From Lingula anatina (lineage: Eukaryota; Animalia; Brachiopoda), in assembly GCA_051362555.1 (NCBI GenBank), contig CM120641.1, positions 34,044,401 through 34,108,400 of the forward strand: a DNA stretch of 64,000 bases, written 5' to 3'. Each line of letters starts with the position of its first letter. Position 1 is the first letter of the stretch. Below, in pieces: positions 10,500 to 46,300 of the stretch. Below the pieces are notes generated by a model that saw nothing but the letters and a program-made list of their open reading frames with translations, did no database searches and had not been told where the DNA came from. A program made the position numbers and the translations under genes.

Positions 10500-11646
10500 T
10501 ATATTGGTTAATTATTGTTTTGCTTCTAATATAGAAGCGCCCCTGTGTCGTTTTTCTTAACAGGGTAAAATCAAATGAGAAGAAATATTTACGATTTAGA
10601 TATAATGTTTATTTGCGAGTTTCAAAGGGTGCACTGCACTTACTGACATAGATTTCTCGTGGACATGTATAAGGGGAGCTTAGTTAAAGAATTTCTATAT
10701 ATACGGACTTTTCGCGCAAAATCTAATTTTTCTTTGATAGAAAAAGTAATTATTGCCTTATCCATTTCTTTACTTGAATTCCATGTTTGTACTATTTGTA
10801 ATCAAACAATTTTCTCTAAAAAAAATCATTATTATCTAAATTACACCATCATATTTTCCTGAGATTTCAGAAGTCATGAACTTTTATTTGCGGATGAGGG
10901 TCTGAATTGGAAAAGCTAAAAGCTTTGCAGGTTAATTATACAAATATGACTTTGGGACAATTCTAAACGCATATACACTGTAGTATAAGTTGTCAAATTA
11001 ATCCTTTTCACTGTAACTCATATATGTTCAGATGTTACAAATAAATATGTTACTAGTTCACGAACAGCACATACACTGTAGCCATTGTTTTAAGTCCGAT
11101 ACCAACAAAATCAAAACCTAATTGCAATGGGTAATGTACATGTAATTTATATACCACCAAAAGATGTTTTCTAACTTTTTGAACACGTGGGTATTAGAAG
11201 GTGAAGAGCCCAACGCACCAGAAATTGAGTTCAACACGATTTATTCGACTTCCAGATTTAAAAAAATTTCTTCCATATTATGTTCGTCCGTTTCATTTCG
11301 CAGTGATGACCTTGGCTGAATGCCTGCTTTTGTTTATGTGCACTCAACCTGACAACGGAAATCTGATTTCTGAGGACATCGAAGGATCACACGATGTTGA
11401 CTGTTTTTTCATCATTTGGCGAAGGGCTTTTTTGCCAAGGGCTGTATCGTATAAAAATGAATGAGAAAAAAAACTAACATAAAAGCACCACTGCGTACGT
11501 ACGGTTCAAATTAATTGAAAATCGTACCTATTAGTAACGCCACTTTTGCACCCGCCCCTTGACTTGCCCGGATTTTGCACAAACATACTTACATGTAAGG
11601 TGATAATCCACGATAACTCCCCAGTCCCTAGAAAAAGTTCAACAAG

Positions 11647-20581: not shown

Positions 20582-21018
20582 AAAGTTAACGGTTAAATTG
20601 ACATTAATTAAAAGATAAGCTTTGAAGACCATTACAGTGGCGGGTTTGGGGGGGATCCAGGGAGGTCCTGATCCCCCTTAGATTTTTGAAAAAAAAAAAA
20701 CAACTATAGTATCCTCTTGAAATTAGAATTTTGACCTGAATCATAGTTCTAAACTGTACCAAATGGCATCGTTTGCCCTCCAAAATACCAAAATTTTCGG
20801 GGCCCTGCAGTGGGCCCCGCACCCCACGTCAAGGGGCGAGGGAGGGTCCGCTTCGCATCAATTTCTTTCACATTAGCTTAGGGAATTCCAAACCTCGATC
20901 TCGAGTTTTATTAAATGAACTAGGTCGAGCTATTTATAGCACTACGCCATATTCTACTTTCGGTGAAGGCCGCGGACTTTGACTGTCAATGCAGGTGTTT
21001 TAGCAGACCGATGAAAAG

Positions 21019-23298: not shown

Positions 23299-23335
<37 letters not shown>

Positions 23336-26300
23336 TTGATAACATTAAACGAATGATTATTTTTGTAACAAAAAACCTTAGAATAATGGTCATTTTCCCC
23401 AGATTTGTCATCTCATAATTTAATTTATATCTGCTACACAGTGTCCTTTAAAAATTTATTAAACATTTCAAACATTAGTTATGAATTTTAAGTAAATAAA
23501 ATCAGGGGCGGATTTAGGTCGTCTTCTGGGTCTTCCGGAAGACGGTCAGATTTTCAAGTTTACATTGACGGGTATCTAATTTTTTCTGTTGGAAGACGGT
23601 TAGAATTGGAGGATGAATCAACAAAGATAATTTGGAAGACTGTCAGTAAATAGCTCTGGATCCGCCCCTGAAAATGCATTCCTTATCCTTACTTTTTTTG
23701 AGTAAAGTAATATATTCTTACTTGTTATGCTGTATTTACGAATTAGTTAAAAGTTAACAGGATTATTTTACCAGCTGCTATGGAAGCCATAGATTGTGCA
23801 GTCTTAGTGATGTTTGGAGTGGACTGCTCTCAGATATCTTTGCTGTATTTTCTGGCATACAATAATGCCGCTGGTGGGATTAAAGCTCTAACAGAGTCCT
23901 CTGAAGGTGCAGGGCAGGAATTCAAAGTTAAGGTAGAGAACAATGGTGTAGGTCTTAAAAGATATTTATTCAGAAGTTTTTTTCACCTTCCAAAACTCCA
24001 ATTATCCTTATCAGTAAATGTTTCTACTGGTACTCCTGAGTACATATGTTGTTATTACTGTCCAGTCTGAAAAACTTAACTAGCTAGCAAGGAAAATTGC
24101 AATCCTTTTATTATAGTGATTTACCACTGAAAATAACCTTTAGCTCATATGTCTTTATATATTCTTATGGTCTAAAATGCACTAAAGAAATTACATTAAT
24201 GATTTTCTTTTACTGGCTACACTTTTTTCAACACTATTCATATTGCCTAATTCAAATAACTAGATTGATACATAAGTGAATATTTTTACATCTACATGGC
24301 ATCATTTTGTTTTATTTATAATATATTTCATTTGTGATTGATTTTTCTGAAAATAAATAAAAAATTGAACATGCTTTGTGAAAAAATTAAATTTACTCTT
24401 TTAGGGTGGAACTCAACAGATATCTCAATTATTGGCTGAAAAAATTGGAAAGCAAAATATTTATTTAAATAACCCCGTAATGACAGTTACCCAAGTAAGT
24501 TGATATCATTATGTCCACATACAAAAGGATCACATGCTTTCTATTGAAGATTTCTACATTTAAACCTAAAGATACGAAATGATTGCTAACACAAAAATGT
24601 GTCGCTATGAACTTTTCTTTGCTAAATATTTTACAAGAGAAGCCTTGTTTTAAAAGAAAATTGCTGTAAATGGGGTATGCAAAAATGTTATAAATTTAAA
24701 AAAATGTAGATTGCTGATTATAGGTGTTTTAATTTGCCATCAACTCTCTTGCTAATGAAATGTGTCAAATTCTGTTTATGTTTAATTTGAAGGATGACAC
24801 ACAAGTACTTATAACCACAACTACAGGGGATGTTTTCAGGTGCTCCAGAGCAATTTTTACAACAATGCCTCAACAAACAGGTGACGTATATACTGGTAAA
24901 CTGGTTCACATACTGGGAAAAACAGTGTTCCCTTTAGTATCATATTTTTTGAAGTGAGATGACTGAAAATTTTACCCAAAATATTTTTTCTGTGTTTATA
25001 CTGTAGAAAAGCTGAATGTTGTGTTAAATTTCTAGTATATATGGAGAGGAATGTTAGTAATTTTGCTAGGGTGAACTTTTGAGTAAATCTCTCTGAAAAT
25101 ACTAATGCTGATGTAACTAGCTTATGTTCTTTTGTATTCACTAGTTCAGTGAAATATTTACATAAATACGGTAATATTGTTTTTTTTATTGAAGATCAAC
25201 ACTGGCAAAAAATAAAACAATGCGGGGATGGGATTACCTTTGAATATGGAATGTTAAAGTTTTGAGGAGCTTTCTTGTTCTTTCATTACTTAGGTTGATA
25301 ATGAAAGTATATGATTGTATGCTAAATATAACTGTCTTAAAGGGCATTTTGTAGTACATGGGGTATAACCAGTACCTGCCAGTGGGTGAATTTTAGTTTT
25401 TTTTCATAAATATTTGACTTTTTGGATTAATATGAAATGTTTTTTTTAGCCTCGGTGCAGTTCAATCCAAGTTTGCCTCTTGAAAAACTGGAACTGTTCA
25501 AGAGAATGCCAGCTGGTTGTATTGTGAAGTTCATTATTACTTATCGAAATGTATGTTTTACCTTTGTATTAAGAAGCATATACATGTAACAGTGACTTTT
25601 TTGCCTTTAAAAACTCTCAAAACTATATATAGTTACTATATTGGACCATTAGATTAATTAGCAGAGGTCAAAAGTTGTGAGAAAATTTGACCTGATAAAT
25701 TTTTGTTCACACACTAGTACATGTACTCTTATGAGTCAAATGTCATCAATAAATGTTTACCAGACATGTGAAACATAGGGTCTCATCATGACTTTCGCAT
25801 ACCATTTTAACCAGTCTCGGCCATGAATTATCAATTAAGTCATGATTACATGTAAGTGGCTCGAAAATGACCCATACTTCAGTCAATTTCTAGCCTCGAA
25901 TTAATGCTGTGTGTGCTCAGCCCCAGAGATTTCTGGCATTTAGTCGATTATTAAAAAATAAATATACATTGTGTAATTGTTTACCTATTATTTGGTATTT
26001 TGTCCATTAGACTTTTTGGCGGGATGCAGGTTTCTCTGGGGAGATCGTAACATGTGGCAGAACTAAAACAGGAGAAGATGGCCCCCTGGGGGTGGTGTTT
26101 GATGCAACCTCACCAAATGGGAATCCTGCTTTGGTTGGCTTTGTGGCAGCCAAACAGGCAGTTAAATGGAGCTGTGATGAAGTACGTACTTGCTTTGTAT
26201 GCATATAAAGAATTTTGACCCATGATATTTTGTAGCGTAATTTATCTCAGGATTCAACTCTCTAAATATAAATTAAATTTATTAAATCCATCAATATATG

Positions 26301-27932
26301 GATATTCATGCATTTATATGTAAACCTGCAGTGAATTTTTAAGCAGAGAGAAATATATGCTTGAGTAAACTGCAAGGCTTTAATTGAGGCTATGTTAGTA
26401 TACATGTACATAGCAAATTGTTGTTGCAAGTAGCTATACCGGTATATTACAGCAACTCATATTTTGCATCCTTTTATTTTAAACAGCATGACCCCACCCC
26501 CTTTTATTTTAGCACTTGATCCAGTGGTACATGTAGTTATGATTCTGCTTATTTTTTTGTCAGGCAGCAAAGAGGAAGGCAGTAGTGTTGTCTGCCATTG
26601 CAGAGTTCTTAGGTCCCCAAGCTGAGGAATGCCTGGACTATGTAGAACAGAATTGGGGAGAGGAGCCTTACACTTTGGGTGGACCTGTATCCCCAGCTAC
26701 TACAGGCTGCATGGCCTATTTTGCTGCAGGACTAAGGCAACCATTTAATAGGTTAAAAACAATTACTATTGAGTAAAGTTTACTACTAGTAGTAGTATCA
26801 TTCTTGCTAGAATGTGCATCTAAGGGAACTTTCTGATATTTTTAGAATTGCCTGTAGCATACATTTGGCAAGGATTTCTGAATTTTCCATTTGAAAAATA
26901 TTACTGACAAGCAATTTATAAAGGTTATAGGTTCAGAGATAATTTCAAGTTCACATATTCAATAAAGCTGCTGCAGTATCTAGAAAAATTCAATTATTAT
27001 CTTTTTTTTTCAAACTTTTCTTTAAGAATCCACTTTGGGGGGACAGAGTCGGCCACAGTGTGGTGTGGTTTCATGAATGGTGCTGTGCAAGCAGGAACTA
27101 GGACTGCCATTGAGGTAAACAAAAAGATATTCACCATTCATATACAGTGGTATATGAACAGTTTCCTGCTGGTGGTTGTGTCTACAGTAAATTACTCATC
27201 TTTTCAATTGGGAAAAATATGTGAATTTTACAGATATTGTATTTTTATTTTGTGGCAGCAACAAAATTAAGAAGCAGGCTAGTTTATGCTCTGTGCAGTA
27301 AAAGCTCTGCAAATGCTATAGAAAAATATTTTTTTTTTAAAATTATAAATAAAATAAAATTATGTATCTGACAGTTTGATAATTGCAGTACTTTGTTTTA
27401 ATCGTCAACCACCATTTTTCAAATGTTCAGTTGATTTGGCAGCAAGAAATATTGATAAAAGTTTGTGTTCTCTTTCTTTGTTTGGTAATTGTGATACAGA
27501 ATGTAAACCAGATATTTTATTAGCCTTTACTACTATCATGTTAACTATGGTGGTACAATGTATAATGAACCCAAAACCATTGAGTAGGTACATTATGTTG
27601 ATGTACTAAAGAATACAAAAGTATACAGTATAAATATATACAGCATTGATATATACAGACAGTATATTGGTTTTCTAATGTACTAGTACATTTACTTGCA
27701 GATTGTGGTACTTAATTTAAAAATTGATTTATTAAAGGTTCTCTACCACCTCCGACCACAAGCAGTAGCCACAGAAGAACTTAGACAAAGTGCCTATTGT
27801 CCAGCCTCCACCTGGCCAAAGAAGAAGAGGAAAGTGAAGAGACATAAGATATTGAAATGGACCCTTGGGTTTGGGGTCCTCACTTGTTTAGCATTAGTGG
27901 CAAGAAGAACTTACATAAAATACATTGATTGA
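21019..27932 (+). CDS. Flavin-containing monoamine oxidase-like protein, copy 1, with C-terminal membrane anchor (12 exons: 21019-21145, 21751-21838, 22742-22916, 23181-23295, 23775-23932, 24405-24494, 24793-24880, 25450-25550, 26011-26181, 26564-26751, 27027-27114, 27738-27932)
   Basis: DVVVVGAGLSGLSAA...VLEAKDRVGGRT FAD-binding motif, DLGGQWVG, GQEFKVKGGTQQIS, RIHFGGTESATVWCGFMNGAVQAG. Ends in a basic stretch plus a TM segment (WTLGFGVLTCLALVARR). Confidence 0.95.
23503..23670. mobile_element. Small hAT-like MITE in MAO copy 1 intron 4
   Basis: CAGGGGCGGATTTAG ... CTGGATCCGCCCCTG terminal inverted repeats; repeated GGAAGAC motifs. Confidence 0.7.
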
Positions 27933-30900
27933 GAATTTGAGTTACATGTACTTAAGAAAATTGTGTAGAAAGTAAATGACCACATGAAAATGTTTACTAG
28001 TACAGATTTGTAGCTTACATTTGCATGCGTTAGTGTAGTTTCTGACAGATTTTTAAAGTTATTTCTCTGATCAGTTGGTTGAAAGCTTTTATAACTTTCA
28101 AAGGAATTCTTTTTGAACTCATTGTTGTAATGAATACTTTCGGTTCCATGGTGAAAATGTTTTTTAAGAATTTATGTCTTTCTCTCATAAAAAAAGTATA
28201 TCAGGCAATCAAACCACCAGCACATGAAATAAATAAATACCTTCCTTCCTGTAGGGATAATTGGTAAAATTTAAGGAACAGAAAGCTAGTGTGTGTGATA
28301 AAAAAAATAGGTTAAAGGGTATCTTGCGGTATGGCTCCAAGTTCCTATGTCATGCCAGTATGTGTATATTCTGAGAAATGGCAGTAAGTACTGTGGTGAG
28401 TCCCCTTTACCATGCCTTATTAGCAAAGGCAAACAGAGGTTATTTACAGACCAGAAAGCTTGCAGACTTTCTCAATAAAAAACTAAGTTTATTCAGAGAA
28501 AAGGAGGAAAAGCGTTATATGCTCTCCTTGATGACTTTATGACACGCATTCCATATGCATTCCATATACTTGAAGAGGTTGAAAAAAGAAGTAAAGACCT
28601 GATTGTGTCAGCGATGGAAAATTTGAATGTGACGTCACAATAATGTATACATGTACAAATATTTGTGCATTGTCCCTAGATTTAAAATAAATCAAATATT
28701 CAAATATTAGCTACTACTGGTTTATGTAGCAGTTTTAACAAGGCTATCAGGTTATAATTTATGGAAGACAGTCTCCATTAGATTTTGTATTAAATTTGAG
28801 ACAGTATTGATGTCTTTTTAATTGAATCTACACTGTACTGCATCAAATGGTACAATGTAACAGACTGCTTCTTATATTAAGATTAGAATTTTAGGTTTGC
28901 GTCTTTACATCCAAGTACTATAGTGTTTCGATTGCATACTCACTAATGTTGTTAAAAGTAATAAGTATTGCCTAATACAAGCATCTTTATAATGCCACTA
29001 TTTTGGAAGAATACAGAGCAGATTGGCTTATACAATATGACAGAGGTTACATACACATTCACACAAACGTGAAAAATTACTTTCAGGAAACTCAGAAGAG
29101 TCAGATTGATTTAGAGATGGAGATTTAGGAGTATATAAATTATTTTTGTAGCATTTATTTTTCCATGTGATGCAGATCATCAGTATTCTTAATAAATACA
29201 TAGTATGTGTACACTTTTTATAGATGTTTTGCTTGCTGCTTTTATATTGCAAACAGAAGGGACATTTGATGTACCTGTATATGTAGCTGCTCAATTTAGT
29301 GAAACATTATTTTGTTAATCTAAGATTTGTTTTGTGAACTGACGGAAAATCTGTGTACAGTCACATTATTGAAGAGTGTAGAATACACGTGTATGTATAA
29401 TATGCATTTTTAATGATAAAGAACAAATAGTTATTATGCAAATTTGCAATTATACAAAAGACTTTCTCCTTCATTTCTTCCTTGGTCACATTTGAAACAG
29501 CTCTATGACTACCAAACCATAGATTTGTTTGATTTTGAAATTACTGAGTAGCACTGTTAAACAGCCTTCAATTTCTAGGAAAAAAAAACATCACTGGTCC
29601 CCTCTTGAAAGTAGAATTTTGACTAGCTGAATTATAGTTCTAAACCATACCAAATAGCACCATTTACTCAGAATTTACAGAGTTAACCAAAACTGTCTAC
29701 CAATCTGATTTATTGATTATTTTTAAATCCTTATATTGCAGATTGATACAGATCGTTCAATTAATATGTTGTTCATACTCTTCAATAACTTCATTCTGGA
29801 TTCAATTTTACATGATATCAGTACCATCTTTCAACCCAGGAAAAACATTCCATCATGAATTCCTCCAGGAAAACTGTCTACCTTTGTAAAATATGTTATA
29901 ACGAATAATACACAGTTAAACATCAATAAATTCATTTTGTTGCTCTTAACATCAAAGGTGGAACAACAAGTAAGGAATAAAGCAAGATTGCTTTGAAATC
30001 GTTTGGATCATTGGTATAATCTCAAGAAACTGTCCACATCTGACTTAAAGTTCATTTCTGATCTAAAGAATAAAATCTACTCGTGATGAAATGGTTATTC
30101 CTCAACAACACTCGAGAAAATCGGAAAAACAGTGGCATGCGACCCTCTCTTGAGGAATGACTGTGTGCACCCAGCATTCTTCAGTAGGAAAAGGATTAGA
30201 GTTAGTAAGGGTAACAGAAAGGACTAAGATAATGATTTTCTCAAATGCTAAAGAATTCCCCTGCCACTAGAAGCAATTTTATAAATACTAATTCCAAATG
30301 GTTGGCAGATGTGGACAATCGTACCTGTAGGCAATACCAGTGTTTCTTGTGAGCAATTAACCCTGCACATTTCTCGTGTAGACCCAAAACTTATAGCTAA
30401 TGCAGATTACAGATATTGTAACCTTTTATTTTCATTCAGATTACTGAAAGTAGTGGTTTTCCTGCATCTAATTATGATTTAAAACAATAAAAAAAAACCC
30501 CTCAAAAATATAAAACACCAGAGTTGACCAGAGTGTATGGGCTATAAACCCATACCGCCAATTTTGTTTAAATGATTATGTTAAGGGGTTATGTTATGTT
30601 ATGTAATGTTACAGATTTTTATTTAGCAAAGGCATCTTCTATCTTAATCACCAAAAAAAAAAAAAATTAAACTAAGACTTAAGAAAAATGGCTGGCAGGG
30701 TTTTGGAGTACTAAATGGTGTCATTTAATTGCCTTAAAAGGATGATCATTTAAGTATATTATAAACAAGATAAAATATCCTGTATTTGCAATTATTTGTG
30801 AAAACAATTTACATACTTATATGTATGCGTATATTGACAATATTTTTCCACCATGGAGATAGATCTATTTCCAACATAGACCCATTCGGTACATTGGGTT

Positions 30901-31149
30901 TATTGCATGTATAACATGCATAATAATAATAATATGTATTTATTTGCAACTTAAAAAGTTGGATTTTACAATAAAAACAAATAGTCGTGAGATGCAAAAT
31001 CTTAAAATATACTTGTAAGTGTTAAAATGATTCGATACACATTAAAAATTCATAAAAACCTCAGTTCTTAAAATTTGATAAAGCCCATGGGATAAAAGTT
31101 TTTGACGATCGTACAGTCCTCAATTTTGGCACAGTGTACTTGTAAACCC

Positions 31150-31565
31150 GGCGCAAAGTGTAGGAACTTTCATTTATCTCTGGTAGCAAATGATGGATTT
31201 TGTGTCCTTCAGAGTACATGTTATGCAATAATGTTTTAGATAGTTCATCTCTTCAACAAGCAAGAGTGATAAGTTTACATGTTTCAAGTGCCCCATCATA
31301 GGACAGCTCTGGGAATATAATCTTACATGCTCTAATCTGGATGGATTCAATTTTATCAATTTGTTGTTGTGTAAGACCTGGGTGCCACCCCTGACATGCA
31401 TATTCTAATGTAGGTCTGATTACTGATGTATAAAAGCTTACAAGTTCATTGGTTGGAATACCTGCTTGTTTCAATAGCTGAAGATTGTGTAGCCTTTTGC
31501 TTGCTTTTTTACAAATATCACAGATGTGACCTTCCCAGCTCAAATCACTACTGAGCCTAACCCCT
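31150..31565 (-). mobile_element. 5'-truncated non-LTR retrotransposon (CR1/L2-group) RT C-terminal fragment
   Basis: Translation GVRLSSDLSWEGHICDICKKASKRLHNLQLLKQAG...FYTSVIRPTLEYACQGWHPGLT...IESIQIRACKII is the typical LINE ORF2 C-terminus; it degenerates downstream. Confidence 0.88.
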
Positions 31566-32169
31566 ACGAAGACAGCACATGCATTGTGTTTCTTCGTAAT
31601 CAATCTCCATGGTCCAAATTGTTTCAGCTATTCTTTATATGAAAATGAACTGGGTACATTATTTGATGCATTTCTTATGTTTGGCGTTTTGCACGTTATG
31701 AGAAATAAGTGTACAGAACAAGCCGCATCCTCTAGAACGTAGACAGCAAAGATGATGCCAATCCCACACATTCAGTTCTGAATTAGTTATGAAATAGATA
31801 TTAAAACTAAATATTTGTGAAGTTATATATTTTATTACACATACTAGAATTAGTAAAGTCAACATTCAGTTTAATTTTATTTGACATTATGGGCAGATTC
31901 ATTTCGCGGGTAAATATGAAAACAAACCATTAGGTGTATGGTAATTCCTGTCGTTTATCATTGGAGGATGAAGTTGCTCCCTTACCAATGACCTTGTTGC
32001 AAAGACTATGGATAGCCTACAAGCTCAAATTAAATTTTTTGTCACAGAGTATTGAAAACACTTCTAATTTTTCTAGCCTTGTTTTATCCTAGGAGTGTGA
32101 ACAAGCAGGTAAAGATCAGAAGGGAGGTTTTCTGTCTCATCCCAAAAGAGTGGTCAAATAGAAGTATAG

Positions 32170-35100
32170 TCAAAAATAAAAACAAGATTAGATTTCTTTC
32201 ACTTCTTCTACCCCCGTACCCCAAAAAGTTCACTAACCTGAAGTTGCTAATCTAAAGAATGTAGTCGAGGTCTGAGAGAAGGCACTATGTTGTGGAAGAA
32301 GGCCGTCTTGTGTATGTGGCTATTGCATGCTATCATCTATGTCCTGTAAAGGGAAATAAAAAATTAGATTTGTTTCACTCCTCCTAACACACCCCATAAA
32401 AGTATACTAACCTTAAAAAGTTCATCCAGGCAGTCAAGGACAATTAAGGTCCGAAAAGAAGCGCTATGTCATGGAAGAAGGCTGGCTCATGAATGTGGCG
32501 AGGGCTTGTGTATGTCATCACCTTCGGTGTCCTGTAAACAGAAATAAAAACAAGATTAGATTTCTTTCACTTCTCCTACCCCTGCCCAAAAAAAGTTTAC
32601 TAACCTGAAGTTGTTAATCCAAGATTGTAGTCAAGGTCTGAGAAAAGGCACTACTGGTATGTTGTAGGAGAGGGCTGGCTCATTAATGTGACAAAGGACT
32701 TGTGTATGTCATCATCTTCTATGTCCTGTAAACAGAAATAAAAAAAAGGTTAGATTTGTTTCATTTCTACTACCCAACCCCCCCCCCCCCCCCCCAAAAA
32801 AGTTTACTAACCTTAAATTGTTCATTCTAGCAGTGAAGGTCCGAAAGGAAGCCATCATCTTCTATGTCTTGTATCTTCTATGTCCTGTAAACAGAATTAA
32901 AGACAAGATTAGATTTGTTTCATTTCTCCTACCCAACCTCCAAAAAAGATTACTAACCTTAAATTGTTCATTCAAGCAGTCAAGGTCAAGGTCCACTTCC
33001 GGTATGTCGTAGAAGGCTGGCTCATTATGTGGTGAAGGACTTGTGTATGTCATCATCTTCCATGTCCTGTAAACAGAAATGAGAACAAGATTAGATTTGT
33101 TTCAATTCTCCTACCCAACGCCAAAAAACAGTACTGAGTATACTAACCTTTAGTTGTTCATTTGAGCAGTCAAGGTACAGTTCTGAAAGGAAGTCATCAT
33201 CTTCTACGTCTTGTATCTTCTATGTCCTGTAAACAGAAATGAAAACAAGATTAGATTTGTTTCATTTCTCCTACCCAACCCCCCAAAAAGTTTACTAACC
33301 TTAAAGTGTTCATTCGAGCTGTGAAGGTCAAGGTCTGAAAGGAAGCACTATGTCCTAGGAGAAGGCTGGCTCATTATGTGGCGAAGAACTTGTGTATGTC
33401 ATCATCTTCTATGTCCTGTAAACAGAAATGAAAACAAGATTAGATTTCTTTCACTTCTCCTACCCCTGCCCAAAAAAGTTTACTAACCTGAAGTTGTTAA
33501 TCCAAGATTGTAGTCAAGGTCTGAGAGAAGGCACTACTGGTATGTCGTAGGAGAAGGCTTGCTCATAAATGTGGTGAAGGACTTGTGTTAGTCATCATCT
33601 TCTATGTCCTGTAAACAGAAATGAAAACAAGATTAGTTATTTTTCATTTTTCCTACACAATGCCAAAAAAAGTTTACTAACCTTTAATTGTTCATTCAAA
33701 AAGTGAAGGTCCAAAAGGAAGCCATCATCTTCTATGTCTTGTATCTTCTATGTCCTGTAAACAGAAATAAAAAAAGGTTAAGATTTGTTTCATTTCTCCT
33801 ACCCAACCCCCCAAAAAAGGTTACTAACCTTAAATTGTTCATTCTAGCAGTGAAGGTCAAGGTCCGAAAGGAAGCCATCATCTTCTATGTCTTGTATCTT
33901 CTATGTCCTGTAAACAGAAATAAATACAAGATTAGATTTGTTTCATTTCTCCTACCCAACCCCAAAACAAGTTTACTAACCTTAAATTGTTCATTCAACA
34001 GTGAAGGTCAAGGTCCCAAAGGAAGCACTATGTCCTAGGAGAAGGCTGGCTCATTAATGTGGCGAAGGACTTGTGTATGTCATCATCTTCTATGTCCTGT
34101 AAACAGAAATGAAAACAAGATTAGATTTCTTTCACTTCTCCTACCCCTGCCCAAAAAAGTTTACTAACCTGAAGTTGTTAATCCAAGATTGTAGTCAAGG
34201 TCTGAGAGAAGGCACTACTGGTATGTCGTAGGAGAAGGCTGGCTCATAAATGTGACAAAGGGCTTGTGTATGTCATCATCTTCTATGTCCTGTAAACAGA
34301 AATGAAAACAAGATTAGTTATTTTTCATTTCTCCTACACAATGCCAAAAAAAGTTTACTAACCTTTAATTGTTCATTCAAGCAGTGAAGGTCCAAAAGGA
34401 AGCCATCATCTTCTATGTCTTGTATCTTCTATGTCCTGTAAACAGAAATAAAAAAAGGTTAGATTTGTTTCATTTCTAGCTACCCAACCCCCAAAAAAGT
34501 TTACTAACCTTAAATTGTTCATTCGAGCAGTGAAAGTCAAGGTCCAAAAGGAAGCACTATGTCGTAGCAGAAGGCTGGCTTATTAATGTGGTGAAGGGCT
34601 TGTGTATGTCATCATCTTCTATATCCTGTAAACAGAAATGAAAAAAGATCAGATTTGTTTCATTTCTCGTACCCAACTCCAAAAAAAAAGTTTACTAACC
34701 TTTAGTTGTTCATTCGAGCAGTGAAGGTCACGGTCCGAATGGAAGTCATTGTCTTCTATGGCTTGTATCTTCTACGTCCTGTAAATAGAAATAAAAAAGA
34801 TTAGATTTGTTTCATTTCTCCTACCCGACCCCCCAAAAGTTTACTAACCTTAAATTGTTCATTCGAGCAGTGAAGGTCAAGCTCCGAAAGGAAGCGCTAT
34901 GTCGTAGACGAAGGCTGGCTCATTAAGGTGGCGAAGGGCTTGTGTATGTCATTATCTTCATGTCCTGTAAACAGAAATGAAAACTTGATTAGATTTCTTA
35001 CATTTCTCCTACCCAACCCCCAAAAAAGTTTACTAACCTTAAATTGTTCATTCGAGCAGTGAAAGTCAAGGTCCAAAAGGAAGCACTATGTCGTAGCAGA

Positions 35101-38100
35101 AGGCTGGCTTATTAATGTGGTGAAGGGCTTGTGTATGTCATCATCTTCTATGTCCTGTAAACAGAAATGAGAACAAGATTAGATTTGTTTCAATTCCCCT
35201 ACCCAACTCCAAAAAAACAGTTTACTAACCTTTAGTTGTTCATTTGAGCAGTCAAGGTCAAGTTCTGAGAAGAATTAAGTCATCATCTTCTATGTCTTGT
35301 ATCTTCTATGTCCTGTAAACAGAAATAAAAATTAGATTAGATGTGTTTCATTTCTCCTACCCAACTCCAAAAAAAGTTTACTAACCTTTAGTTGTTCATT
35401 CAAGCAGTGAAGGTCAAGGTCCGAAAGGAAGCACTATGTCGTAGAAGGCTGGCTTATTAATGTGGTGAAGGGCTTGTGTATGTCCTCATCTTCTATGTCC
35501 TGTAAACAGAAATGAAAAAAAGATAAGATTTGTTTCATTTCTCGTACCCAACTCCAAAAAAAAGTTTACTAACCTAAAGTTAGTTGTTCATTCGAGCAAG
35601 GAGTTATAACAGAAGGAGATTACACGCAAGCCTTTCTTTTGTCCGATGTCTGTTACGGTGGGCGGAGCTAGCTACGGGGGGCCTCCGGTCTCAAGGTTTC
35701 GTCTGCGTCGCTCTCCTCAGCTTGGAGATAAATTTCATATGCGTTATTTCGCGTTAGAATTCGAGATCAGTAATGTCAAAGCGCCGCTGTATGCTGACGA
35801 TTTTTTTCACAGGTAATTATTTGGACGATGTGCTGGAAGGGAACGATATCATAGAAAGCGATTATAAGGTGGTGACTGAGGATGGTCGCCATGAGCTTTT
35901 TTAAGTCGGTGATAGATGGCTTTTTTATGGCACAACCCGGTGAAAAATCACCAAGGAGAAGTCAAAAGAAAACGTCCCAACTGTGGTTTGTGAAAATGAC
36001 ATTCAAGTGAACGTCTGTCCTCACTGCCAAAGGACATAATATTAATACATTAACGTTTGGACCCTCCTGCCCTTAGGTCCCATAAACATATACATTGTGA
36101 CAGTGCCTACGCTTTGTGTCTGGTTTTAAATTTCTTAAAGTATTTTTTCTCTCACTCGGTATAATTTTAATATTATAATGCATTTAATTAAAATTTTAAT
36201 CCAAGGTTGAGGCAATGCCACGACACGTCAGTTTACTGAATACTCGTTATAAATTTCTTTATCTTGGAAATTTCCCTTTTTTTCAGGATTATTTGACACG
36301 TACTAACACTGTTCATATTTGTCGGTAAACAAGTGCACAGTGCTATACATTAAGAATAATTTTTATTCATTCATAAATATATTTATGTACAAAACATATC
36401 AGAAATTTTAGTATTCACTGAGCTCTTTAAAGTGAAACAAATAAAGATGAGAATATTGAATTTCAAACTATTATTTACTATATTAACTTAAAATATCTTT
36501 TAAGTCAACTCTATACTCAAGCACTCTATACTCTATACTCATGAAAGTAGCATCTGTGAGTGAAACCATTTTATTATATCAATAGAAGAACAAAAACAAA
36601 AATTTTACACATAAGCAGTAATAAATGAAGTCATAAGAATGATTAAGTTGCTACAGTTTTCCAGTTTTATGCAGTCTATGATGGCATTTTTTTCAACCGT
36701 GCAAATAGAAATAATTATATTCTTTTTTATCTGACTTGCTGATACCAGTCTGTGCCAGATACTATTCCACTTACAGGCCAGCAAGGTCTGAGAATCTAAT
36801 GGGCCGAATGAAAAAAAAAAATCCTAGAAGATAAAGTGGTTAATTCTTACAAATAGGATAAAAAACATGGGATTTTCAAAAGGTTATTATAGATCAAGAC
36901 AACACTTAGTAAGAACATTTATAAAATGTAACAGCTGAAAAAATTAACTGGTAAGTAAGCAGTAAGTGACTGCTTTAAAGAAATTTCACAGAAACAGAAA
37001 TTTCACTGGCAATCAGGTAGACTGTTATACCATGGCACTCAACAATTTATATATAGGTTTTGAATTTTTTTCCACATAACAGTAACATAAAATTTATGTC
37101 CACTTTTGCAATGTATAGAGTCAGTTAGGTGACTGAAAATATTTTAAAATGTCATAAAGGAGCACTATTAATTTAATGCAATCTCTGTTGGCCAGTCTTA
37201 TCCAGTTTCTTCTCCAAAAAGGACAACTCAAGTGAGAATTTCTTCAGGGCCTTTTCTTCTGCCTTGCTAATGCCATGCCACTCAGAAAAGAGAGAAACCT
37301 GTAGGTTAGAAAAAAAACCATAATAATAGCATTATGAACTACTTGTATCCATGTAGACATTATGGAATTACGCAGTGAAGTTTAATGTGTCTTGTTATGA
37401 CTTGACTGAAATAATGTTCACCACATAAATGAACAATTTACAACTAAATTTATATAGAACATCAAGATTCATGATCACAAGCTAATAACCCCAAGAAACT
37501 GAAAGAAATTGTACTTATTACAAGAAATTATTTAAATCCGCCCTGGTTCCTACTCTTCTGACAGGACAAAAAGGGGATTTCAGAGAGGCTGGTTGCTAAA
37601 AGGAAAATGCCCAAGGTTGTTGTATTTTGAAAAAAAAAATTAAAAAGGGTACTGTTGTTAGTGAATGTTTAATGCATCTTAGGCATTATGACAAAAGTAA
37701 CTTACCCCAGACACACTGACCTCCTTTTTTCATTGACATATTTTAATTTTTTCCAGCCTGACCATAATTCATATATTCAATGCAGCCTTCTCCCACATCT
37801 ATAATAGAAAAAAAAACTTGAGTAGTGTTAAGATATGCATGTCAAATTCATTATCAATTTTGAGAGAATTTCTGTTTCAACACTACAAGATGAAATATTT
37901 AATTTCAAGTAATGAATAAACCTTAATAGAGTTCTATTCTTTTGTAACCACCAAGGCAAAGCTTCTTTCTTAAAATGAACTGAAACATCCAAGCTTGCCA
38001 CCTAACATGCCAAAGTAGTGAAGTATAATTTAAGTAGAGAAGCAAGTACCCCTTAATTATAGAGGTGTCTTACACAATAAGGTGTGTCTTACACACCTTG

Positions 38101-39970
38101 ACTCAAAGAGAGATGTGTAGTGAGATAACAGGTTAAGTAATTGGTGGAGCCTAGGTGAACTTAAAACCTTCAGACTTTAAATTAAGAAGCACCAGGATTC
38201 ATGTGTGTTCTTTTTTCAAAGGTTTAATATGAATTAAAACATACATATGTAAAAACAAGACTAAATAAGTTAAAAATAACTATACCAAAGACACTGTGAA
38301 GTCAAACTTCCTGTTAGACCGCCATGATGGAAAATGCTGGGTGGAGGCAAAATTTTCCAGTCAAAAAAACTGAGCACTTTACTTTAACAACAAAGTTACC
38401 ACTCCAAAGCCACCCACCATGGTGAGAAGAAAAATGATGACCAACTGTCATGATAAGTCTTTTTAGATTTAAACATGAAAAAGGTAAAGGCCAAAATGGT
38501 ACATTTACCCATAACACTAGAGTAAAAAATTGGTATTCTGAACAAATCAGGTTATTTTTTTCAAGAAATATTGGAGCAGTATCCATGCAATATATACCAC
38601 GCCACGACCAAGATGTTCAAGAATCTAAACACACCAAATTTTTTTATAATCTTGCATTTGAAAAGTACAAAAAGCGGTAAGGCTTTTGGCCGTAACAAGC
38701 GTAACACTTTTTGATCGGAACTCATGAAAATTGTCAATTGTCGTATCCAAGCTAGACCACATGTAAAATCGCATAAAAAAACAATACTGCTCAAGCAAGT
38801 GTGTTGCACACATAACAATTAGTTAAATTTTATGACTGTCATGTGACACAAGTTTCAAAAAGTAGGAGGAAAATGTCTTTTGGAGTAATTTTTTTTCGAA
38901 ATATTAACAAGATGGCGGCTTAAGCATCTGCTTGTTATTCGGCTACTGAAAGTGCACCTAAGTTTTATTCTTTGCTATTGCCACAAATTACTTAACAATT
39001 GCAACTGTATAAAGACCAAACTTTCTTCATCTGATACTATATTTATAGGCACTTGTTATGAGTGGGAAATATTTTTCGTGCAATATTTATTCTCCACACA
39101 CCACCTCGCGAGATCAACGTGTAGCTGGACACTTACACAGTGAGACCCTACGACATAAAAGTTGCAATTTATCTTCATATTTCGTGTAGTTATGCATTTA
39201 AAAGCACTTACCTGTTTTTTGAAAACCTTGTCCAACGTAATATCATATAAATTCTGTATTTCTCTCATTTTTTAGAAACTTGGGACTCCGTTTCTGTTTC
39301 TGTCCTCAAAAATCAACAGACGAAGGCACAGATACTAACAAACGAGATTTAAACGAGAGCAACAATTAAGCGTAACAGAGATAGGCATCCATTGTTCTCT
39401 GGGTTCTATTCATTCCGACCAATGAGAGACCGTAATACGGGCTCCGCCCCCACGCGTGTAATCTCCTTCTGTTATAACTCCTTGATTCGAGCAGTCAAGG
39501 TCAAGGTCCAAAAGGAAGTCATCATCTGCTGTCTTGTATCTTCTATGTCCTGTAAACAGAAATAAAAACAAGATTAGGTTTGTTTCATTTCTCCTATTCA
39601 CCCCCCCCCCCCCCCCCAAAAAAAAAGAAGTTTACTTACCTTAAATTGTTCATTCGAGCAGTGAAGGTCAAGGTCCGACAGGAAGCACTTTGTTATCGAA
39701 GAGCTTGTGTATGTCATCATCTTCTATGTCCTGTAAACAGAAATGAAAACAAGATTAGATTTGTTTCATTTCTCGTACCCAACTCCAATAAAAAAAGAAG
39801 TTTACCAGTACTAACCTTTAGTTGTTCATTCAAGCAGTCAAGGTCAAGTTCTGAAAGGAAGTCATCATCTGCTGTCTTGTATCTTCTGTGTCCTGTAAAC
39901 AGAAATAAAAACAAGATAACATTTGTTTCACTTCTCCTACTCACTCCCCCCCCCCCCCCCCCTTAACCTT
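32170..39970 (-). repeat. Tandem array of ~22 exon+intron units (monomers ~145-195 bp), interrupted by a transposon at 35597-39484
   Basis: The core TCCTGTAAA occurs 19 times in 32340-35510 and 3 times in 39545-39900. On the minus strand each unit has AG|GTTAGT, CTAAT and TTGTTTTCATTTCTGTTTACAG|GAC. Long (~114-121 nt) and short (~73-85 nt) exon variants. Confidence 0.9.
35597..39484. mobile_element. P-element-like non-autonomous DNA transposon, 3.9 kb
   Basis: Perfect 31-bp TIR CAAGGAGTTATAACAGAAGGAGATTACACGC and 7-bp TSD ATTCGAG duplicated from an array monomer. No intact transposase ORF. The P assignment rests on the CAAGG terminus and TSD length. Confidence 0.88.
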
Positions 39971-40177: not shown

Positions 40178-40335
40178 GGGGCCGTAGCAATAGTCCGAAG
40201 GTTCATTGGTCCGAATGTTCACTATAAAACCTTCGGACCAATGAACCCTTGATTAAAAAATCGATAAAAATGTTACCACTTTTCGGACCAATGAACCTTC
40301 GGACCAATGAACCTTCGGACTATCGAGACGCCCCC
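40178..40335. mobile_element. Small Mutator-like MITE with CGGACCAATGAACCTT subrepeats
   Basis: GGGGCCGTAGCAATAGTCCGAAGGTTCATTGGTCCGAA ... TTCGGACCAATGAACCTTCGGACTATCGAGACGCCCC; flanked by GTACATTT on both sides (8-9-bp TSD). Confidence 0.8.
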
Positions 40336-40373: not shown

Positions 40374-40863
40374 CACGCTCGGCTGTCACCTTGATTGGAT
40401 AGTAAACAGTTGTCGTAAAATCGCTAAATGATATTAAAACCCGGTGCATAAAGTTGAAAACCACCTAGGACAACCTCAGACTGCCACATTAATCCAATAC
40501 AATGCAAAAATAAACTATAACAAGTGGTTAAAGCCTTCAAACCGAATGTCGTAAAGTCCCCATATACCTCCATAGAGTCAATAAAATATAGTATTTTATT
40601 TCGATTATTATGTTGGAACTGGATTTTTCTTGTTTCAGAAGCTTACTATATTTTATTGTCTCTATGGAGGTATATGGGGACTTTACGACATTCGGTTTGA
40701 AGGCTTTAACCACTTGTTATAGTTTATTTTTGCATTGTATTGGATTAATGTGGCAGTCTGAGGTTGTCCTAGGTGGTTTTCAACTTTATGCACCGGGTTT
40801 TAATATCATTTAGCGATTTTACGACAACTGTTTACTATCCAATCAAGGTGACAGCCGAGCGTG
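40374..40863. mobile_element. Foldback element: 220-bp near-perfect inverted repeat with 50-bp spacer
   Basis: Arms 40374-40593 and 40644-40863 are reverse complements with one mismatch seen. Flanks TGTATTGAAG / TATATTGAAG look like a ~10-bp TSD. Confidence 0.92.
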
Positions 40864-41486
40864 TATATTGAAGCGTCGAATTCACAGAAGCACACGATGG
40901 GAGGAAGACGAAACATTCGTTGTTTTATGCTGGTAAGGAAACTATCCTCAAGTTCGGTGGATTTGCGTAGGATCACATGAGATTTGAAGGTGGTTCCTAG
41001 AAGAAATATGCGCTTACTTGGCGTCCTTTGTTCTCCTTTGGAGTGCAACGCAATAGGCCAGGTACGTCCTTTCCGCTGCTGTGTGTGCTGTTGAGTGATA
41101 TCACATGTTCACATTTGCCCGCTCTTAGACTTCAATCGTAGATTGTCGCTTGGGGCGTTGCTGTCGTCACCATGTTGTCAGTTTGAACGCGGGGGTGTCG
41201 TATCAGAATGAAACCCAAATTTCATTTTTGTATTTTATATAAACCTAACACCTTTGAAATGCATTCAACGTTTTCATACCTGTCATCTTTTTTGTCTAAA
41301 AAGAAAAATAAAACATACATTTTATTCAAAGGAAAGAATCAATGTTATGATAATTTTTGAAGGAAAACCACACATGCCTCTCCCCTAATTATGATTGAAA
41401 GTGTCCTGGCATCCTGTTGAAACGACCTGAAGTTTACTAACCTCCCCCAGGCCATCATTGGACGACCTTGTCCGCGTACGCTGTAA

Positions 41487-42688
41487 AGCCTCGGTCACAA
41501 CCGGACGCACGAATTTCAGGATCGTACGTCCCCTGCGATTTTGGGGTGTTGCGGAGGCCGTGGAGGTCGTACAGTTAGAGGAAAGTCTGCCTTGCGAGTC
41601 GCAAGGGCCACACAGCTGTACCCTCCGGGGGTGGGGGTGGGGGGCAGGGGGGGGGCAGCTGCCCCCCTGGGATTTGAGGTGCAAAACAAAATCGCAAAGG
41701 TAAAAAAAAAATTGCAAAGTTGGTATCAATTCTTTGAGAAAATGCACTCATGGCCACTAGACAATCATTCAACAATCGTGGGAGGGGGACACCCCCTCCC
41801 ACACTCTCCCCCCTCGGGGGCTTGGCCCCCTCGTGTCCGCTTACTGCCCCCGTGGCACTTTGCTCAGGCTACGGCCCTGCCACATGAGATGTCCTTTCAG
41901 GCAGGGACGCTAATTGCAAGGAGCGATGGTCGTGGAAATTGTACTCATTTCTTGAGTTTTTCTTGCTTCCAGTGTACGTGGCACACACTCACCATTTAGA
42001 AGGGAAATGGAATGCAACGCACGGCGAAAGTAGTGCCCTAGCTTTTGTGTCAGTTTTGCTTCACACTTGCCTCACACGTTTGTGGTGACGTACTGACGGC
42101 GTACGTCAGTTTTGCTTCCTGTTCTCCTCTTCTTTCTTCTTCCTCCTCCCTTTTTTTCTAGTACTATGTAAGCTTCTTTCTCTTGCCTTTTGGAGGCATA
42201 TTAGAAACTTGATTGAGCAAAAATTTGAAATTTTTGAAAATTGTTGTACACGGTACACAGTCGACGTTCGATCATTGTAACGACATGAGCGTGCGTTGTG
42301 AGCACGCCTTTTATACACCAGGCGTGTGGATGATGCACGTGCGACGCATTCCCGGTGTTTTCTCGACTTTGTTCGTTAGTTGTGAGGGCGTGCGCCTTAC
42401 TCAACACGCAAAGGGCACCTGTTCCTCTGATTGCTTGCGGCGTGCGTCTTGCACAACGCGAGTCGCCCTTGCTAACTTCGAGCGAGGGGAGAGTTACGCT
42501 TGCGGCCTCGCTGTTCGCAGGCTATTCGTAGAATCTTTTGGACATGTCCAAACATTCTCCGTACGTGCTTAAGGACTGTCTGCGAACTCGAAATTGCGTA
42601 AGAAGGCCTTGCGTGGGACGTGAGATTCTGCGCATATTTGGACGCAAACAGCCCGTAAGAGCCCGTACAGCCGGTTGTGACCGAGGCT
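41487..42688. mobile_element. PIF/Harbinger non-autonomous element with a nested hAT-like MITE (~41615-41879)
   Basis: TAA|AGCCTCGGTCACAACCGG ... CCGGTTGTGACCGAGGCT|TAA. CpG-rich interior. The nested G/C-run element ends in GCTACGGCCCTG. Confidence 0.85.
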
Positions 42689-43063: not shown

Positions 43064-43327
43064 GGGAGTTACCTCCCTCGGCTCCTGCGAGGAAAAAAAA
43101 CGATAGCCTAGATTCGAGACTGTTACACACCATCATGTGATAACTAGTAGGCCTATATTGTTTACTCGGTAAGTGGCGTGATTCTCAGTTCTTCTTGTTA
43201 TTGGCGATCAATAGTAAAACGTGACGCTGACGTTAAGGCCACATAATAGTGCGTGGCTATATTTTACGATTAACAATTGGGAATTTGGCTGGCTAACATG
43301 AACTCAAATGCTGGAGCGGATGAAAAG

Positions 43328-46300
43328 ATGGCAAGTCCGGCGTCAGTCGACGTGGACGTAGTTGTTGTAGGGGCAGGGTTGTCAGGGCTTAGTGCAGCGT
43401 ATGAACTGATCAAGAGAGACCCAAGTCTTCGAGTAGCAGTGCTGGAAGCAATTGGTGAGTCTAAATTTGCGAGTGACGATGTAGGGGGCTATACAGGTGC
43501 TAAGGACTGTAAGGAGTTACCACTGTTTTCGGTCTTACAGTTACATCATGTTATGTGCTGGTACCTGCGGTACGGGTACCTACGGTAGCATGTAACATCG
43601 GAAGGCCAAAAGTTGCAGGCACAGGGGAGACCGGGGCTAGTTCGATTCCGGGGAAAGTTGCCCCCCCCCCCCCCCACCAAGGGTCCAACTAGCCCCGGTC
43701 TCCCCTATACTCATACAAGGGGGTGAACTTCCTATTCCCAAGTACATGTAGGCATGTGTAGCCTACTAGTAGGCTACAGGCGTACATGTACGTTGAGTGG
43801 ATGGCCTGTTAGGCGAGTTGCCATTTCCGTAAACTTACTATAAAAGGCTTACAAAATGTTGGGCTCATACTCCCTGTACTGGGTCATACCTTGAATCTTA
43901 CCAGTCTTATTGCCATATTTAGGCAAAGGGAGCCAAGATATAGATAACGTACGTATAACCACTCAGGTGTAATTAATTCCTCTGTGCAATGTACTTAATT
44001 CTTGGCTTTACATTGGAAAAAAGAAAAATGTATATTAAGTATCAGGATTCATTTGAAGTTACCCAATCATTTCCTTGTTCAGCCAAAATATATAGCTAGT
44101 AAAAACTGCACCTTCTTAATTTTTCTGGTCAGAATTGACATACTAGTATTTATCCATCCTTCAATTCTCAACAGAGTATAATAGAAACCAGTCAACAAAG
44201 CATTCAAAATAAGAAACTTGAAATATATGTTGGATAATCCTCGGATATTGTGTCAGTGTCAGTACACGTGCACTTCTAGCAGTTTTAGAAAAAATACTTA
44301 TTAAGCATGACAAATAACAGTATTTTTTATAAGAATATTTAAAATTAATTAAAAGTTGTCTGATATCAATATTTTTTAGAATTTAAGAGAAGATTTCATG
44401 TACAAGGAAGATGTGCTTTAAAATTGGATTAATTGTCTTACAAATCCATTTTAAATTTGATATTAATTTTTTGGCTATATATCTATATGTTAGATAGAGT
44501 TGGTGGTCGCACTTTAACAACAACATTAAAAGCAGCAGGAGGAGAAGATGTGTGGGATCTTGGTGGACAGTGGGTAGGAAGGTATGTGGTAAAATAATTT
44601 ATATTATATTAAATTATATTATATTATATTATATTATATTATATTATATTATATTTGAACTGGCATAATTCATTCAGATATGGCTGATATACTGATTGGT
44701 CAATGAATCTAAGAAATTTTTATTCCTACATTGCAATAGGCAATGATAATATGCAAAAACATGATCAACATTTGGTCAGTATAACATTTAAAAATAATTT
44801 AATAAAATTGACCAAACATATTATTGTGTTTTGATTAAAAGCAACATGACTTTTGCTTTTTGAGTGAGTGTTGTAACAAGGCGTCATTTTTTTGTCTAAA
44901 ATGACACTATAGAGCATTACTGCTACTACGCGAACCATTTAATAGTGTGATCTTGTATAAGTACTTTTTTCTAGCTCTCAGACGCACATAATGGCACTGA
45001 TACAAGAGCTGGGTCTTGAGGTGTATAGTCAGTACGACAAAGGAAAGAAGTACATGAAGCTGGGAGACAACAAAATTAGGACATTCACAAGCATTCCAGC
45101 TCTACCCTTTTGGGTATTAATAGATCTTTATTTCTTGATGAGAAAGGTAACACAAGGAGTTCTTTATATTTGAGTTTTACACAGTGGACACAGATCTACA
45201 CACACAAGCACACAGGAACAAACACACAGACATTAATTTATCATATTTTTCCTAAACACTAGGCAACTTTTAATGTTTCAAATTGTGTCAGAACATTTTA
45301 CTAGTTTGTAATTCTTTTGTCTCAAAATGTGGTTGAGCCTAAATGTACATGTGTGAAGTCACATTTGTGTTACAGTATATTTACTAGTACGCCTACTTAT
45401 AAACTTTTGTATACGGGTATTGTGTCAGAACATTTTACTAGTTTGTAATTCTTTTGTCTCAAAATGTGGTTGAGCCTAAATGTACATGTGTGAAGTCACA
45501 TTTGTGTTACAGTATATTTACTAGTACGCCTACTTATAAACTTTTGTATACGGGTATTTTAGATAGATAGTATGAGCTCTCAAGTTCCAATTGAAGACCC
45601 ATATCAGTGTCAATATGCAGAAAAATGGGACAGTATAACTGTGGAAGAATTTATGCAGCAGCAATGTTGGACAGCAGGTATGATATATTGGCTATTTTTT
45701 GCACTTTTGCTTCACTTATGTACATGTAGCACATATATAGACACAACTGAAGATGTTGGTGATAACTAAATTTTAATATTCCAGGTAGTCTGTTCTAAGA
45801 CTGAGGTCAAATTAGTGATATCTTTTATGATAAAAGACAGCTGGCAAAAACATTTTATTCTGGAAACCCTTCCATTATTCTGTTTCACCACACTACCCAT
45901 CTATACATAAATACTTGTACTAGTAGTTCAGTCTCAGTGCCACAGAACATTGATTATCTACCTTGTGAAATAATTTTTTAAGGTGCTAAAAGTACTTATT
46001 ATTTTTTTTTTGGCATTTTCAATTCCTTTGTTATTGTCCATACAACTAAAAATAGGGTTTATTTTTTTGCAGTAGCAAATGGGGATTATGGAAATAGAAG
46101 AATCGACATTAATGAATGTTATAATTATTCTTGGATATTTTGTTAATTATTCTGAAGTTACCATGGATTTTTTTTCTTTTATCAGGTGCTAAAGAAGCTG
46201 CAGATTGTTTATTTCTTATACTGGGTGGTGCTGACTGCTCTCAGATGTCTCTGTTGTTTCTTCTTGCCCAAACCAACGCTGCTGGAGGAACTGGAGCTGT

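What the first reader, a model, noticed from the sequence alone, without database searches (positions are those of the whole stretch)
33227..33299. Each array intron folds into a hairpin ending at the 3' AG with the branch point in the loop (mirtron- or introner-like)
Seen (minus strand): GTTA-GTAAAC-[TTTTTGGGGGGTTGGGTAGG]-AGAAATGAAACAA-ATCTAATC-TTGTTTTCATTTCT-GTTTAC-AG. The 3' arm TTGTTTTCATTTCTGTTTAC is the reverse complement of GTAAAC+AGAAATGAAA(A)CAA, so the intron is a palindrome interrupted by a length-variable T/G run. GTAGG can alternatively pair with TTTAC via G-U, leaving a 2-nt AG 3' overhang and a 5' tail. CTAAT sits in the 8-nt loop. Established: 5'-tailed mirtrons have a hairpin flush with the 3' splice site, and introner elements are inverted-repeat-bearing mobile introns. 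Inference: a tandem mirtron/small-RNA cluster, or a structure-gated splice site. The ~47-nt hairpin is short for a Dicer substrate.
Basis: partly seen in the sequence, partly recalled or inferred. Interest (0 to 1): 0.75.

Follow-up and report, generated by a model that had tools for sequence, protein, structure and literature searches.

The report
Tandem exon-intron repeat, bystander hairpin
An animal genome carries 22 tandem copies of a short exon plus intron that no longer codes for protein, and related copies are spliced in RNA, but the small hairpin predicted in each intron drifts as fast as the DNA around it and is likely an inherited passenger rather than a microRNA source or a jumping intron.

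Summary
The palindrome is there: 18 predicted pairs, 48 nt, ending at the AG, with CTAAT in the loop. RNA contigs of variant copies show exon-to-exon junctions as well as unspliced forms, so the introns are real, and the splice sites are invariant. The hairpin shows no sign of selection. None of 18 pairs has a compensatory change. The arms change as fast as the exon flanks (0.89 and 1.07 against 1.08 changes per site). The would-be 3p seed has 11 versions in 22 copies. The hairpin is shorter than typical 5'-tailed mirtrons (63 +/- 10 nt). Similarity runs on into homologous exon sequence, in the array and in relatives elsewhere, which fails the introner definition. The exons carry stops in all frames. 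Best reading: a decayed multi-exon gene of a dispersed family whose exon-plus-intron module was amplified in tandem, then split by a 3.9-kb inverted-repeat transposon. All 22 hairpins descend from one ancestral quasi-palindrome. No small-RNA data could be laid, so a mirtron cluster is unlikely (about 7%) but not excluded.

The parts
33227..33299 (-). The finding's intron: GTTAGT donor, T/G run, hairpin, CAG acceptor (73 nt)
33257..33274 (-). 5' (purine-rich) arm of the predicted hairpin, 18 nt
33249..33256 (-). 8-nt loop holding the branch-point-like CTAAT (branch use not tested)
   Evidence: branch-point consensus recalled
33229..33248 (-). 3' arm = polypyrimidine tract, 20 nt; AG at 33228-33227 predicted unpaired
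32170..35596 (-). Main block of the array: 19 intact introns (68-86 nt) with 73-121-nt exons between them, of three sequence types; higher-order repeats of about 340 nt and a 172-nt exact duplicate 681 nt apart
39485..39967 (-). Upstream block of the array: 3 introns (75, 85, 90 nt) and exons of 77 and 91 nt
32171..32237 (-). 23rd, terminal intron copy that has lost its acceptor
35597..39484 (.). 3,888-nt DNA-transposon-like insertion inside one array exon: perfect 31-nt terminal inverted repeats, 7-nt target duplication
41993..42316 (-). Possible promoter (TATAAAA at 42315) and decayed first exon (ATG at 42199, basic/acidic start with stops, GT at 41992); link to the array inferred, not tested with RNA
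41442..41909 (-). Possible second exon with a GC-rich insertion; last 60 codons open and ending in phase 0 at a donor that shares its first 12 nt with the array donors (nhmmer E 2.4, not significant)
41252..41296 (-). Possible third, 45-nt phase-0 exon, loosely like the array exon by eye; not found by nhmmer

Best explanation
This is a tandem array of 22 exon-plus-intron units with non-coding exons, split by a 3.9-kb inverted-repeat insertion, and related copies are transcribed and spliced; it is likely the amplified remnant of a decayed multi-exon gene of a dispersed family, and the predicted hairpin is likely a passenger copied from one ancestral intron. Shown: the unit structure, stops in all frames, the insertion with its target duplication, spliced and unspliced RNA contigs of variant copies, invariant splice sites, and no covariation or extra conservation in the stem. 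Inferred: the ancestral module was a roughly 63-nt phase-0 coding exon plus a roughly 73-nt intron; unequal crossing-over or slippage amplified it; the spliceosome removes the introns only in part; and the AU-rich stem may weakly shield the polypyrimidine tract as a side effect, without being selected.
For: 0 of 18 pairs compensatory, covariation score 0.054 against 0.060 in shuffles (also 0 of 10 and 0 of 13 pairs). Parsimony changes per site in 21 of 22 units: 5' arm 0.89, loop 0.88, 3' arm 1.07, exon flanks 1.08, p 0.65. 11 different 3p seeds in 22 copies, the commonest in 6. Units average 84% identity over exon ends plus intron. The spliced main block has 43-52 stops per frame and a longest open stretch of 46 codons. 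Two X6 joints (32345 to 32966, depth 274; 33068 to 32964, depth 146) read on the minus strand as exon end, AG, exon start with no intron. Unspliced contigs cross introns in X3, X6 and X7 (records 8, 24, 32). Relatives continue past the acceptor for 12-17 matching exon bases and then, read by eye, keep the same open frame and a D-x-D pattern.
Against: Splice sites are invariant (7 of 7 a-priori sites against 31 of 67 others, p 0.012; GT and AG alone p 0.054), although the exons do not code. Something may select for splicing, which a dead pseudogene does not predict. The stem beats local background. In the 10-pair core about 7 of 15 changes keep a G-U pair (p 0.057 against a rough 25%), falling to 4 of 12 (p 0.35) if the recurrent C/T site is counted once (tally by eye, test). 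No protein relative of the supposed ancestor was found, so the coding origin rests on frame patterns only.
Confidence: 0.7

Rival explanations
1. Structure-gated 3' splice site: the stem is kept because it hides the polypyrimidine tract while showing the branch point, and so tunes how much of the RNA is spliced.
For: The stem covers the whole pyrimidine tract, with core-pair probability >= 0.5 in 16 of 22 copies. Spliced and unspliced forms both occur. A transcribed relative keeps this intron end in about 130 poly(A) reads, likely in sense.
Against: No covariation and no extra conservation of the 5' arm, which has no other splicing role. In pre-mRNA context the fold is not better than shuffles: mean z -0.5, <= -2 in 1 of 22. 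Unspliced contigs may be nascent RNA or come from other copies.
Confidence: 0.13
2. 5'-tailed mirtron cluster: a non-coding host is spliced to release 22 hairpins that are trimmed at the 5' end and diced.
For: Introns are spliced in variant copies. The exons do not code. Splice sites are invariant. The stem is flush with the AG and the 3' arm plus AG is exactly 22 nt.
Against: The 48-nt hairpin lies about 1.5 SD below human 5'-tailed mirtrons (63 +/- 9.9 nt; PMC4556696 section 12). Two 22-nt products would leave about 4 nt of loop. There are 11 seeds in 22 copies, no compensatory change, and AG-flush pairing >= 0.5 in only 11 of 22. No Rfam match.
Confidence: 0.07
3. Drosha-cut, splice-site-overlapping microRNA array: the stem extends across the AG into the exon and competes with splicing.
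For: In this copy the fold extends over the acceptor to 21 pairs. A branch point in the hairpin and a purine-rich exon start resemble miR-34b (PMC3794580 abstract).
Against: The extended fold is not significant (z -1.47). It reaches 30 or more pairs in 3 of 22 copies, with loose bulge limits. The seeds vary.
Confidence: 0.03
4. Introner: the intron is a small mobile element with inverted repeats that inserts into unrelated genes.
For: An inverted repeat lies inside the intron, and related sequence is abundant in a DNA run (summed contig depth 3,500-34,000 over the array against about 85 on unique DNA; not a copy number).
Against: Similarity runs into both flanking exons in all units. No intron-only copy lies in the 64-kb window. 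The loose ends shown for relatives begin 12-17 nt inside the exon, not at the splice site. The repeat is not terminal unless the improbable GTAAAC pairing is used. Gozashti et al. exclude such cases as duplications of a longer region (10.1101/2022.06.06.494994, passages).
Confidence: 0.02

Closest known systems
Amphioxus 'mirage' minisatellites (Adh3; globins BflGb6, BflGb9); PMC3087553 section 16 read
   Same: Head-to-tail units of about 150-190 nt that carry splice signals, about 70-100% alike, with signs of unequal-crossover turnover.
   Different: Mirages copy one exon-intron boundary into an intron of a working coding gene and reportedly do not disturb its splicing. Here each unit holds a whole intron with both sites, variant copies are spliced, and no coding host is left.
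5'-tailed mirtrons; PMC4556696 sections 12 and 22 and passages read
   Same: Short spliced intron with a hairpin flush to the 3' splice site and a 5' tail.
   Different: Hairpin of 48 nt against about 62-63 nt; weak and variable; no read evidence, which is what defines a mirtron in that paper.
Introners; bioRxiv 10.1101/2022.06.06.494994 passages read
   Same: Many similar short introns, with an inverted repeat.
   Different: The copies are tandem and share homologous exons; there is no terminal repeat or target duplication at the intron ends.
Splice-site-overlapping microRNAs such as miR-34b; PMC3794580 abstract and section 13 read
   Same: Branch point inside a hairpin, 3' splice site near its base, purine-rich exon start.
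   Different: The extended stem here is not significant or conserved among copies.
Transcribed pseudogenes and long non-coding RNAs built from tandemly duplicated exons (recalled; no call)
   Same: Spliced, repeat-built transcript without a reading frame.
   Different: No function or expression pattern is known here.

Membership tests
5'-tailed mirtron | Host intron is excised by splicing | tested here: met
   Exon-exon junction contigs from variant copies in run X6. No junction matching the finding's own intron exactly was among the joints shown.
5'-tailed mirtron | Hairpin ends at the 3' splice site with a short 3' overhang | tested here: inconclusive
   Predicted in this copy (p 0.93); >= 0.5 in 11 of 22 copies.
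5'-tailed mirtron | Pre-miRNA-sized hairpin (about 60 nt) able to give two 22-nt strands and a loop | tested here: not met
   48 nt with 18 pairs against 63 +/- 9.9 and 62 +/- 8.9 nt; low tail of the published range rather than an absolute bar.
5'-tailed mirtron | Mature and star small-RNA reads with duplex overhangs | not testable with these tools
   No run described as a small-RNA library among the 20 listed; criteria.
Introner | Similarity begins and ends at the intron borders, in non-homologous flanks | tested here: not met
   Flanks are homologous in all 22 units and in the relatives shown. Only 14 of 17 and 24 of 543 loose-end rows were displayed.
Introner | Dispersed intron-only copies in unrelated genes | tested here: inconclusive
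   None in the window; no genome held.
Introner | Terminal inverted repeats and/or target-site duplication (DNA-type introners) | tested here: not met
   The repeat is internal; the end-to-end GTAAAC pairing is 6 bp and has probability >= 0.5 in 4 of 22 copies.
Splice-site-overlapping microRNA | Stable pri-miRNA-length stem across the splice site | tested here: not met
   Mean z -0.5; <= -2 in 1 of 22.
Mirage minisatellite | Tandem units spanning an exon-intron boundary | tested here: met
Mirage minisatellite | Copies lie in an intron of an intact coding gene and are skipped | tested here: not met
   No intact host frame; junctions between repeat exons are used.
Conserved RNA structure (any) | Compensatory base changes among copies | tested here: not met
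   0 of 18 pairs; power is limited because the copies are close kin.

The most novel reading that the evidence does not exclude
A repeat-built, non-coding host RNA keeps its splice sites under selection in order to release 22 short intronic hairpins per transcript: a tandem 5'-tailed mirtron cluster with diversified seeds, multiplied further by a dispersed family of relatives.
Probability: 0.07. Interest if true: 0.7.

Novelty: new member of a known kind. Interest (0 to 1): 0.22.

Why it matters
As it stands it matters little: it is a case of internal exon-plus-intron duplication, and a caution that 22 copies of a hairpin in a tandem array are one observation, not 22. The one open point is why splice sites stay intact in a non-coding array. 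If small-RNA reads were found, it would be a tandem, splicing-dependent microRNA cluster. I saw no such locus described for this animal in the listings of two searches (titles and abstract starts only).

Tried and rejected
No whole genome is held, so the genome-wide introner test was not possible. Run search: no RNA holder listed; three runs labelled 'DNA?' (X3, X6, X7) later behaved as RNA, with joined amine-oxidase exons and empty intron bins, while X4 behaved as DNA. In three raw RNA runs (about 6%, 6% and 25% read) the laid exons 32958-33415 had depths of 0-4, 0 and 0-1, and no splice joint was listed. I first read the array joints as unspliced register shifts and corrected this; three of the five array joints in table 5 are register shifts. 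Rfam: 0 matches at gathering score. A 26-nt junction pattern found 0 matches in metagenome and viral contigs. Protein searches with the possible exon 2 and an array exon frame found nothing, and Pfam gave no significant hit for these pieces or the insertion's open stretches; these are weak negatives for short, decayed queries. A first test suggested the 5' arm was more conserved than exons (p 0.013; p 0.078); this came from misaligned exon ends and vanished with pairwise projection (p 0.65). The first unit was left out of the tree-based counts because its upstream exon is not alignable. A canonical microRNA hairpin in the exons or on the plus strand: no stable long hairpin in 32950-33464; two exons fold worse than shuffles (z +1.3, +1.5). 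The plus strand of the intron folds with z -3.84, but the stranded reads of the relative point to the minus strand. C/D or H/ACA snoRNA: no canonical boxes or pocket by eye. No outer terminal repeats that would enclose the whole array among the 25 longest of 676 pairs shown. The bacterial promoter scan is not informative for an animal. Paper searches were seen as listings only; no supplements were read.

Full report
Observation. On the minus strand 33299-33227 reads as quoted. The last 48 nt are predicted to fold into 18 pairs with an 8-nt loop that holds CTAAT and a free AG; the whole intron scores -15.0 kcal/mol (z -1.68) and the last 49 nt -13.8 (z -3.40). The array holds 22 intact GT..AG units, and an independent profile search finds these and one terminal copy without acceptor, with no significant hit elsewhere in the window. 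The finding's copy is the strongest of the 22 in its last 49 nt (median -9.9). The whole-intron z is <= -2 in 2 of 22 and the perfect 10-pair core survives in 5 of 22. Of 50 acceptor-like 49-mers elsewhere in the window, 3 fold at <= -10 and none reaches 18 pairs. The fold is above background, but it is one ancestral event copied 22 times.

Anatomy. Units are an intron of 68-90 nt and an exon of 73-121 nt, in two blocks (39967-39485 and 35596-32170). Between them lies a 3,888-nt insertion with perfect 31-nt terminal inverted repeats and a 7-nt target duplication, which cuts one exon. Higher-order repeats of about 340 nt and a 172-nt exact duplicate 681 nt apart point to unequal crossing-over (inference). 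Joined in silico, the 18 main-block exons give 43-52 stops per frame and no open stretch over 46 codons. The exon ends read in phase 0 like a 21-codon acidic module. Upstream lie a TATA-like box and three decayed exon-like stretches; their link to the array is untested and no protein relative was found. The array sits between two paralogous amine-oxidase-like genes on the plus strand. Earlier AI notes call the genome Lingula; I did not verify that.

RNA evidence. Of four contig runs laid on 25400-33420, X3, X6 and X7 join the flanking gene's exons (for example 27112 to 27736, GT..AG) and leave its introns empty, so they behave as RNA; X4 covers introns evenly and behaves as DNA. Two X6 joints, 32345 to 32966 (depth 274) and 33068 to 32964 (depth 146), read on the minus strand as exon end, AG, next exon start, with 6 and 8 variant letters and no intron. 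These are spliced products of alleles or paralogues, not exact matches to the window. Unspliced contigs cross introns in all three runs (records 8, 24, 32). Fifteen joints were not shown, and no exact junction for the finding's own intron was among those shown. In three raw RNA runs the array's own exons were nearly empty. About 130 poly(A) reads in X10 (17 in X16, 2 in X13) matched only 33215-33270. They come from a diverged relative, keep the intron end, lie 130 to 4 in the orientation that usually means minus-strand RNA, and continue into exon sequence that by eye is homologous and in frame. Spliced reads of that relative could not have been laid. In X4, summed depth over the array is 3,500-34,000 against about 85 on unique DNA; this is not a copy number but suggests many relatives. 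Twelve X4 contigs leave the match 17 nt inside the exon.

Is the hairpin selected? None of 18 pairs shows a change on both sides; the covariation score is 0.054 against 0.060 in shuffles, and RNAalifold agrees. Parsimony counts over 21 units give 0.89 changes per site in the 5' arm, 0.88 in the loop, 1.07 in the 3' arm and 1.08 in exon flanks (p 0.65). An earlier, misaligned count had suggested a difference. The would-be 3p seed has 11 versions in 22 copies. With flanks the fold is no better than shuffles (mean z -0.5). Against this reading, core changes that keep a G-U pair are slightly more common than a rough neutral guess (p 0.057 to 0.35), and power is low because the copies are close kin and probably recombine. 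The splice sites, in contrast, are invariant: 7 of 7 a-priori sites against 31 of 67 others (p 0.012; GT and AG alone p 0.054). The terminal 23rd copy, which lost its acceptor, is not in that count. So splicing may be under constraint while the stem shows no sign of it.

Mechanism. Most likely (0.7) a multi-exon gene of a dispersed family lost its frame, and its exon-plus-intron module, with a chance or template-switch quasi-palindrome over the pyrimidine tract, was amplified in tandem and later hit by a transposon. Related copies are transcribed and partly spliced (shown); the stem may slow acceptor use as a side effect (inferred). Rivals: gated splice site 0.13, mirtron cluster 0.07, Drosha-type splice-site-overlapping microRNA 0.03, introner 0.02.

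Comparison. It works like the amphioxus mirage repeats in its turnover (PMC3087553 section 16) but is not one, since whole introns are copied and used. It meets the splicing precondition of a 5'-tailed mirtron but is short (48 nt against 63 +/- 9.9; PMC4556696 section 12), and the defining read evidence (section 22) could not be tested. It fails the introner rule that similarity stops at the intron borders (10.1101/2022.06.06.494994, passages). It shares layout but not stem quality with miR-34b (PMC3794580, abstract and section 13).

Verdict. A real feature of an ordinary kind, with one loose end (intact splice sites in a non-coding array). Interest 0.22.

Noticed in passing
35597-39484: 3,888-nt insertion with perfect 31-nt terminal inverted repeats starting CAAGG and a 7-nt target duplication; these features recall the P superfamily (recalled, not tested). 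Internal exon-like open stretches have no significant Pfam hit.
   Followed up: partly
40374-40863: Foldback with two 220-nt arms, 100% complementary, 50 nt apart; MITE-like.
   Followed up: no
40178-40335: Inverted repeat with 44-nt arms and internal 16-nt tandem units.
   Followed up: no
21010-27932 and 43319-50148 (+): Two tandem paralogous FAD amine-oxidase-like genes, exons about 70-98% alike, flank the array. RNA contigs join exons of the first and run on to about 29400, likely a 3' UTR.
   Followed up: partly
about 30920-31630 (-): Multi-copy fragment that looks like the 3' end of a LINE-type reverse transcriptase (Pfam ALKBH8_N hit, E 8.8e-05; LINE reading is my inference), present in RNA and DNA contigs.
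   Followed up: no
8817-9540 and 9796-10520: 727-nt inverted repeat, 86% alike.
   Followed up: no
45282-45558: Perfect 137-nt tandem duplication; recent duplication or assembly artefact.
   Followed up: no
60096-60404 (+): First exon of a glycosyltransferase gene (relatives carry PF00534 and PF13692); ALG1-like by recall.
   Followed up: partly
array exon ends, e.g. 33320-33337 (+): On the plus strand many exon ends read as two adjacent AGGTCA-like half-sites, a nuclear-receptor-type motif (recalled); may be only the reverse of the D-L-D-L codons.
   Followed up: no
relative of 33215-33270 in runs X10, X13, X16: A diverged relative elsewhere in the genome is present in poly(A) RNA with this intron end retained, and its lower stem looks broken by eye.
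   Followed up: partly
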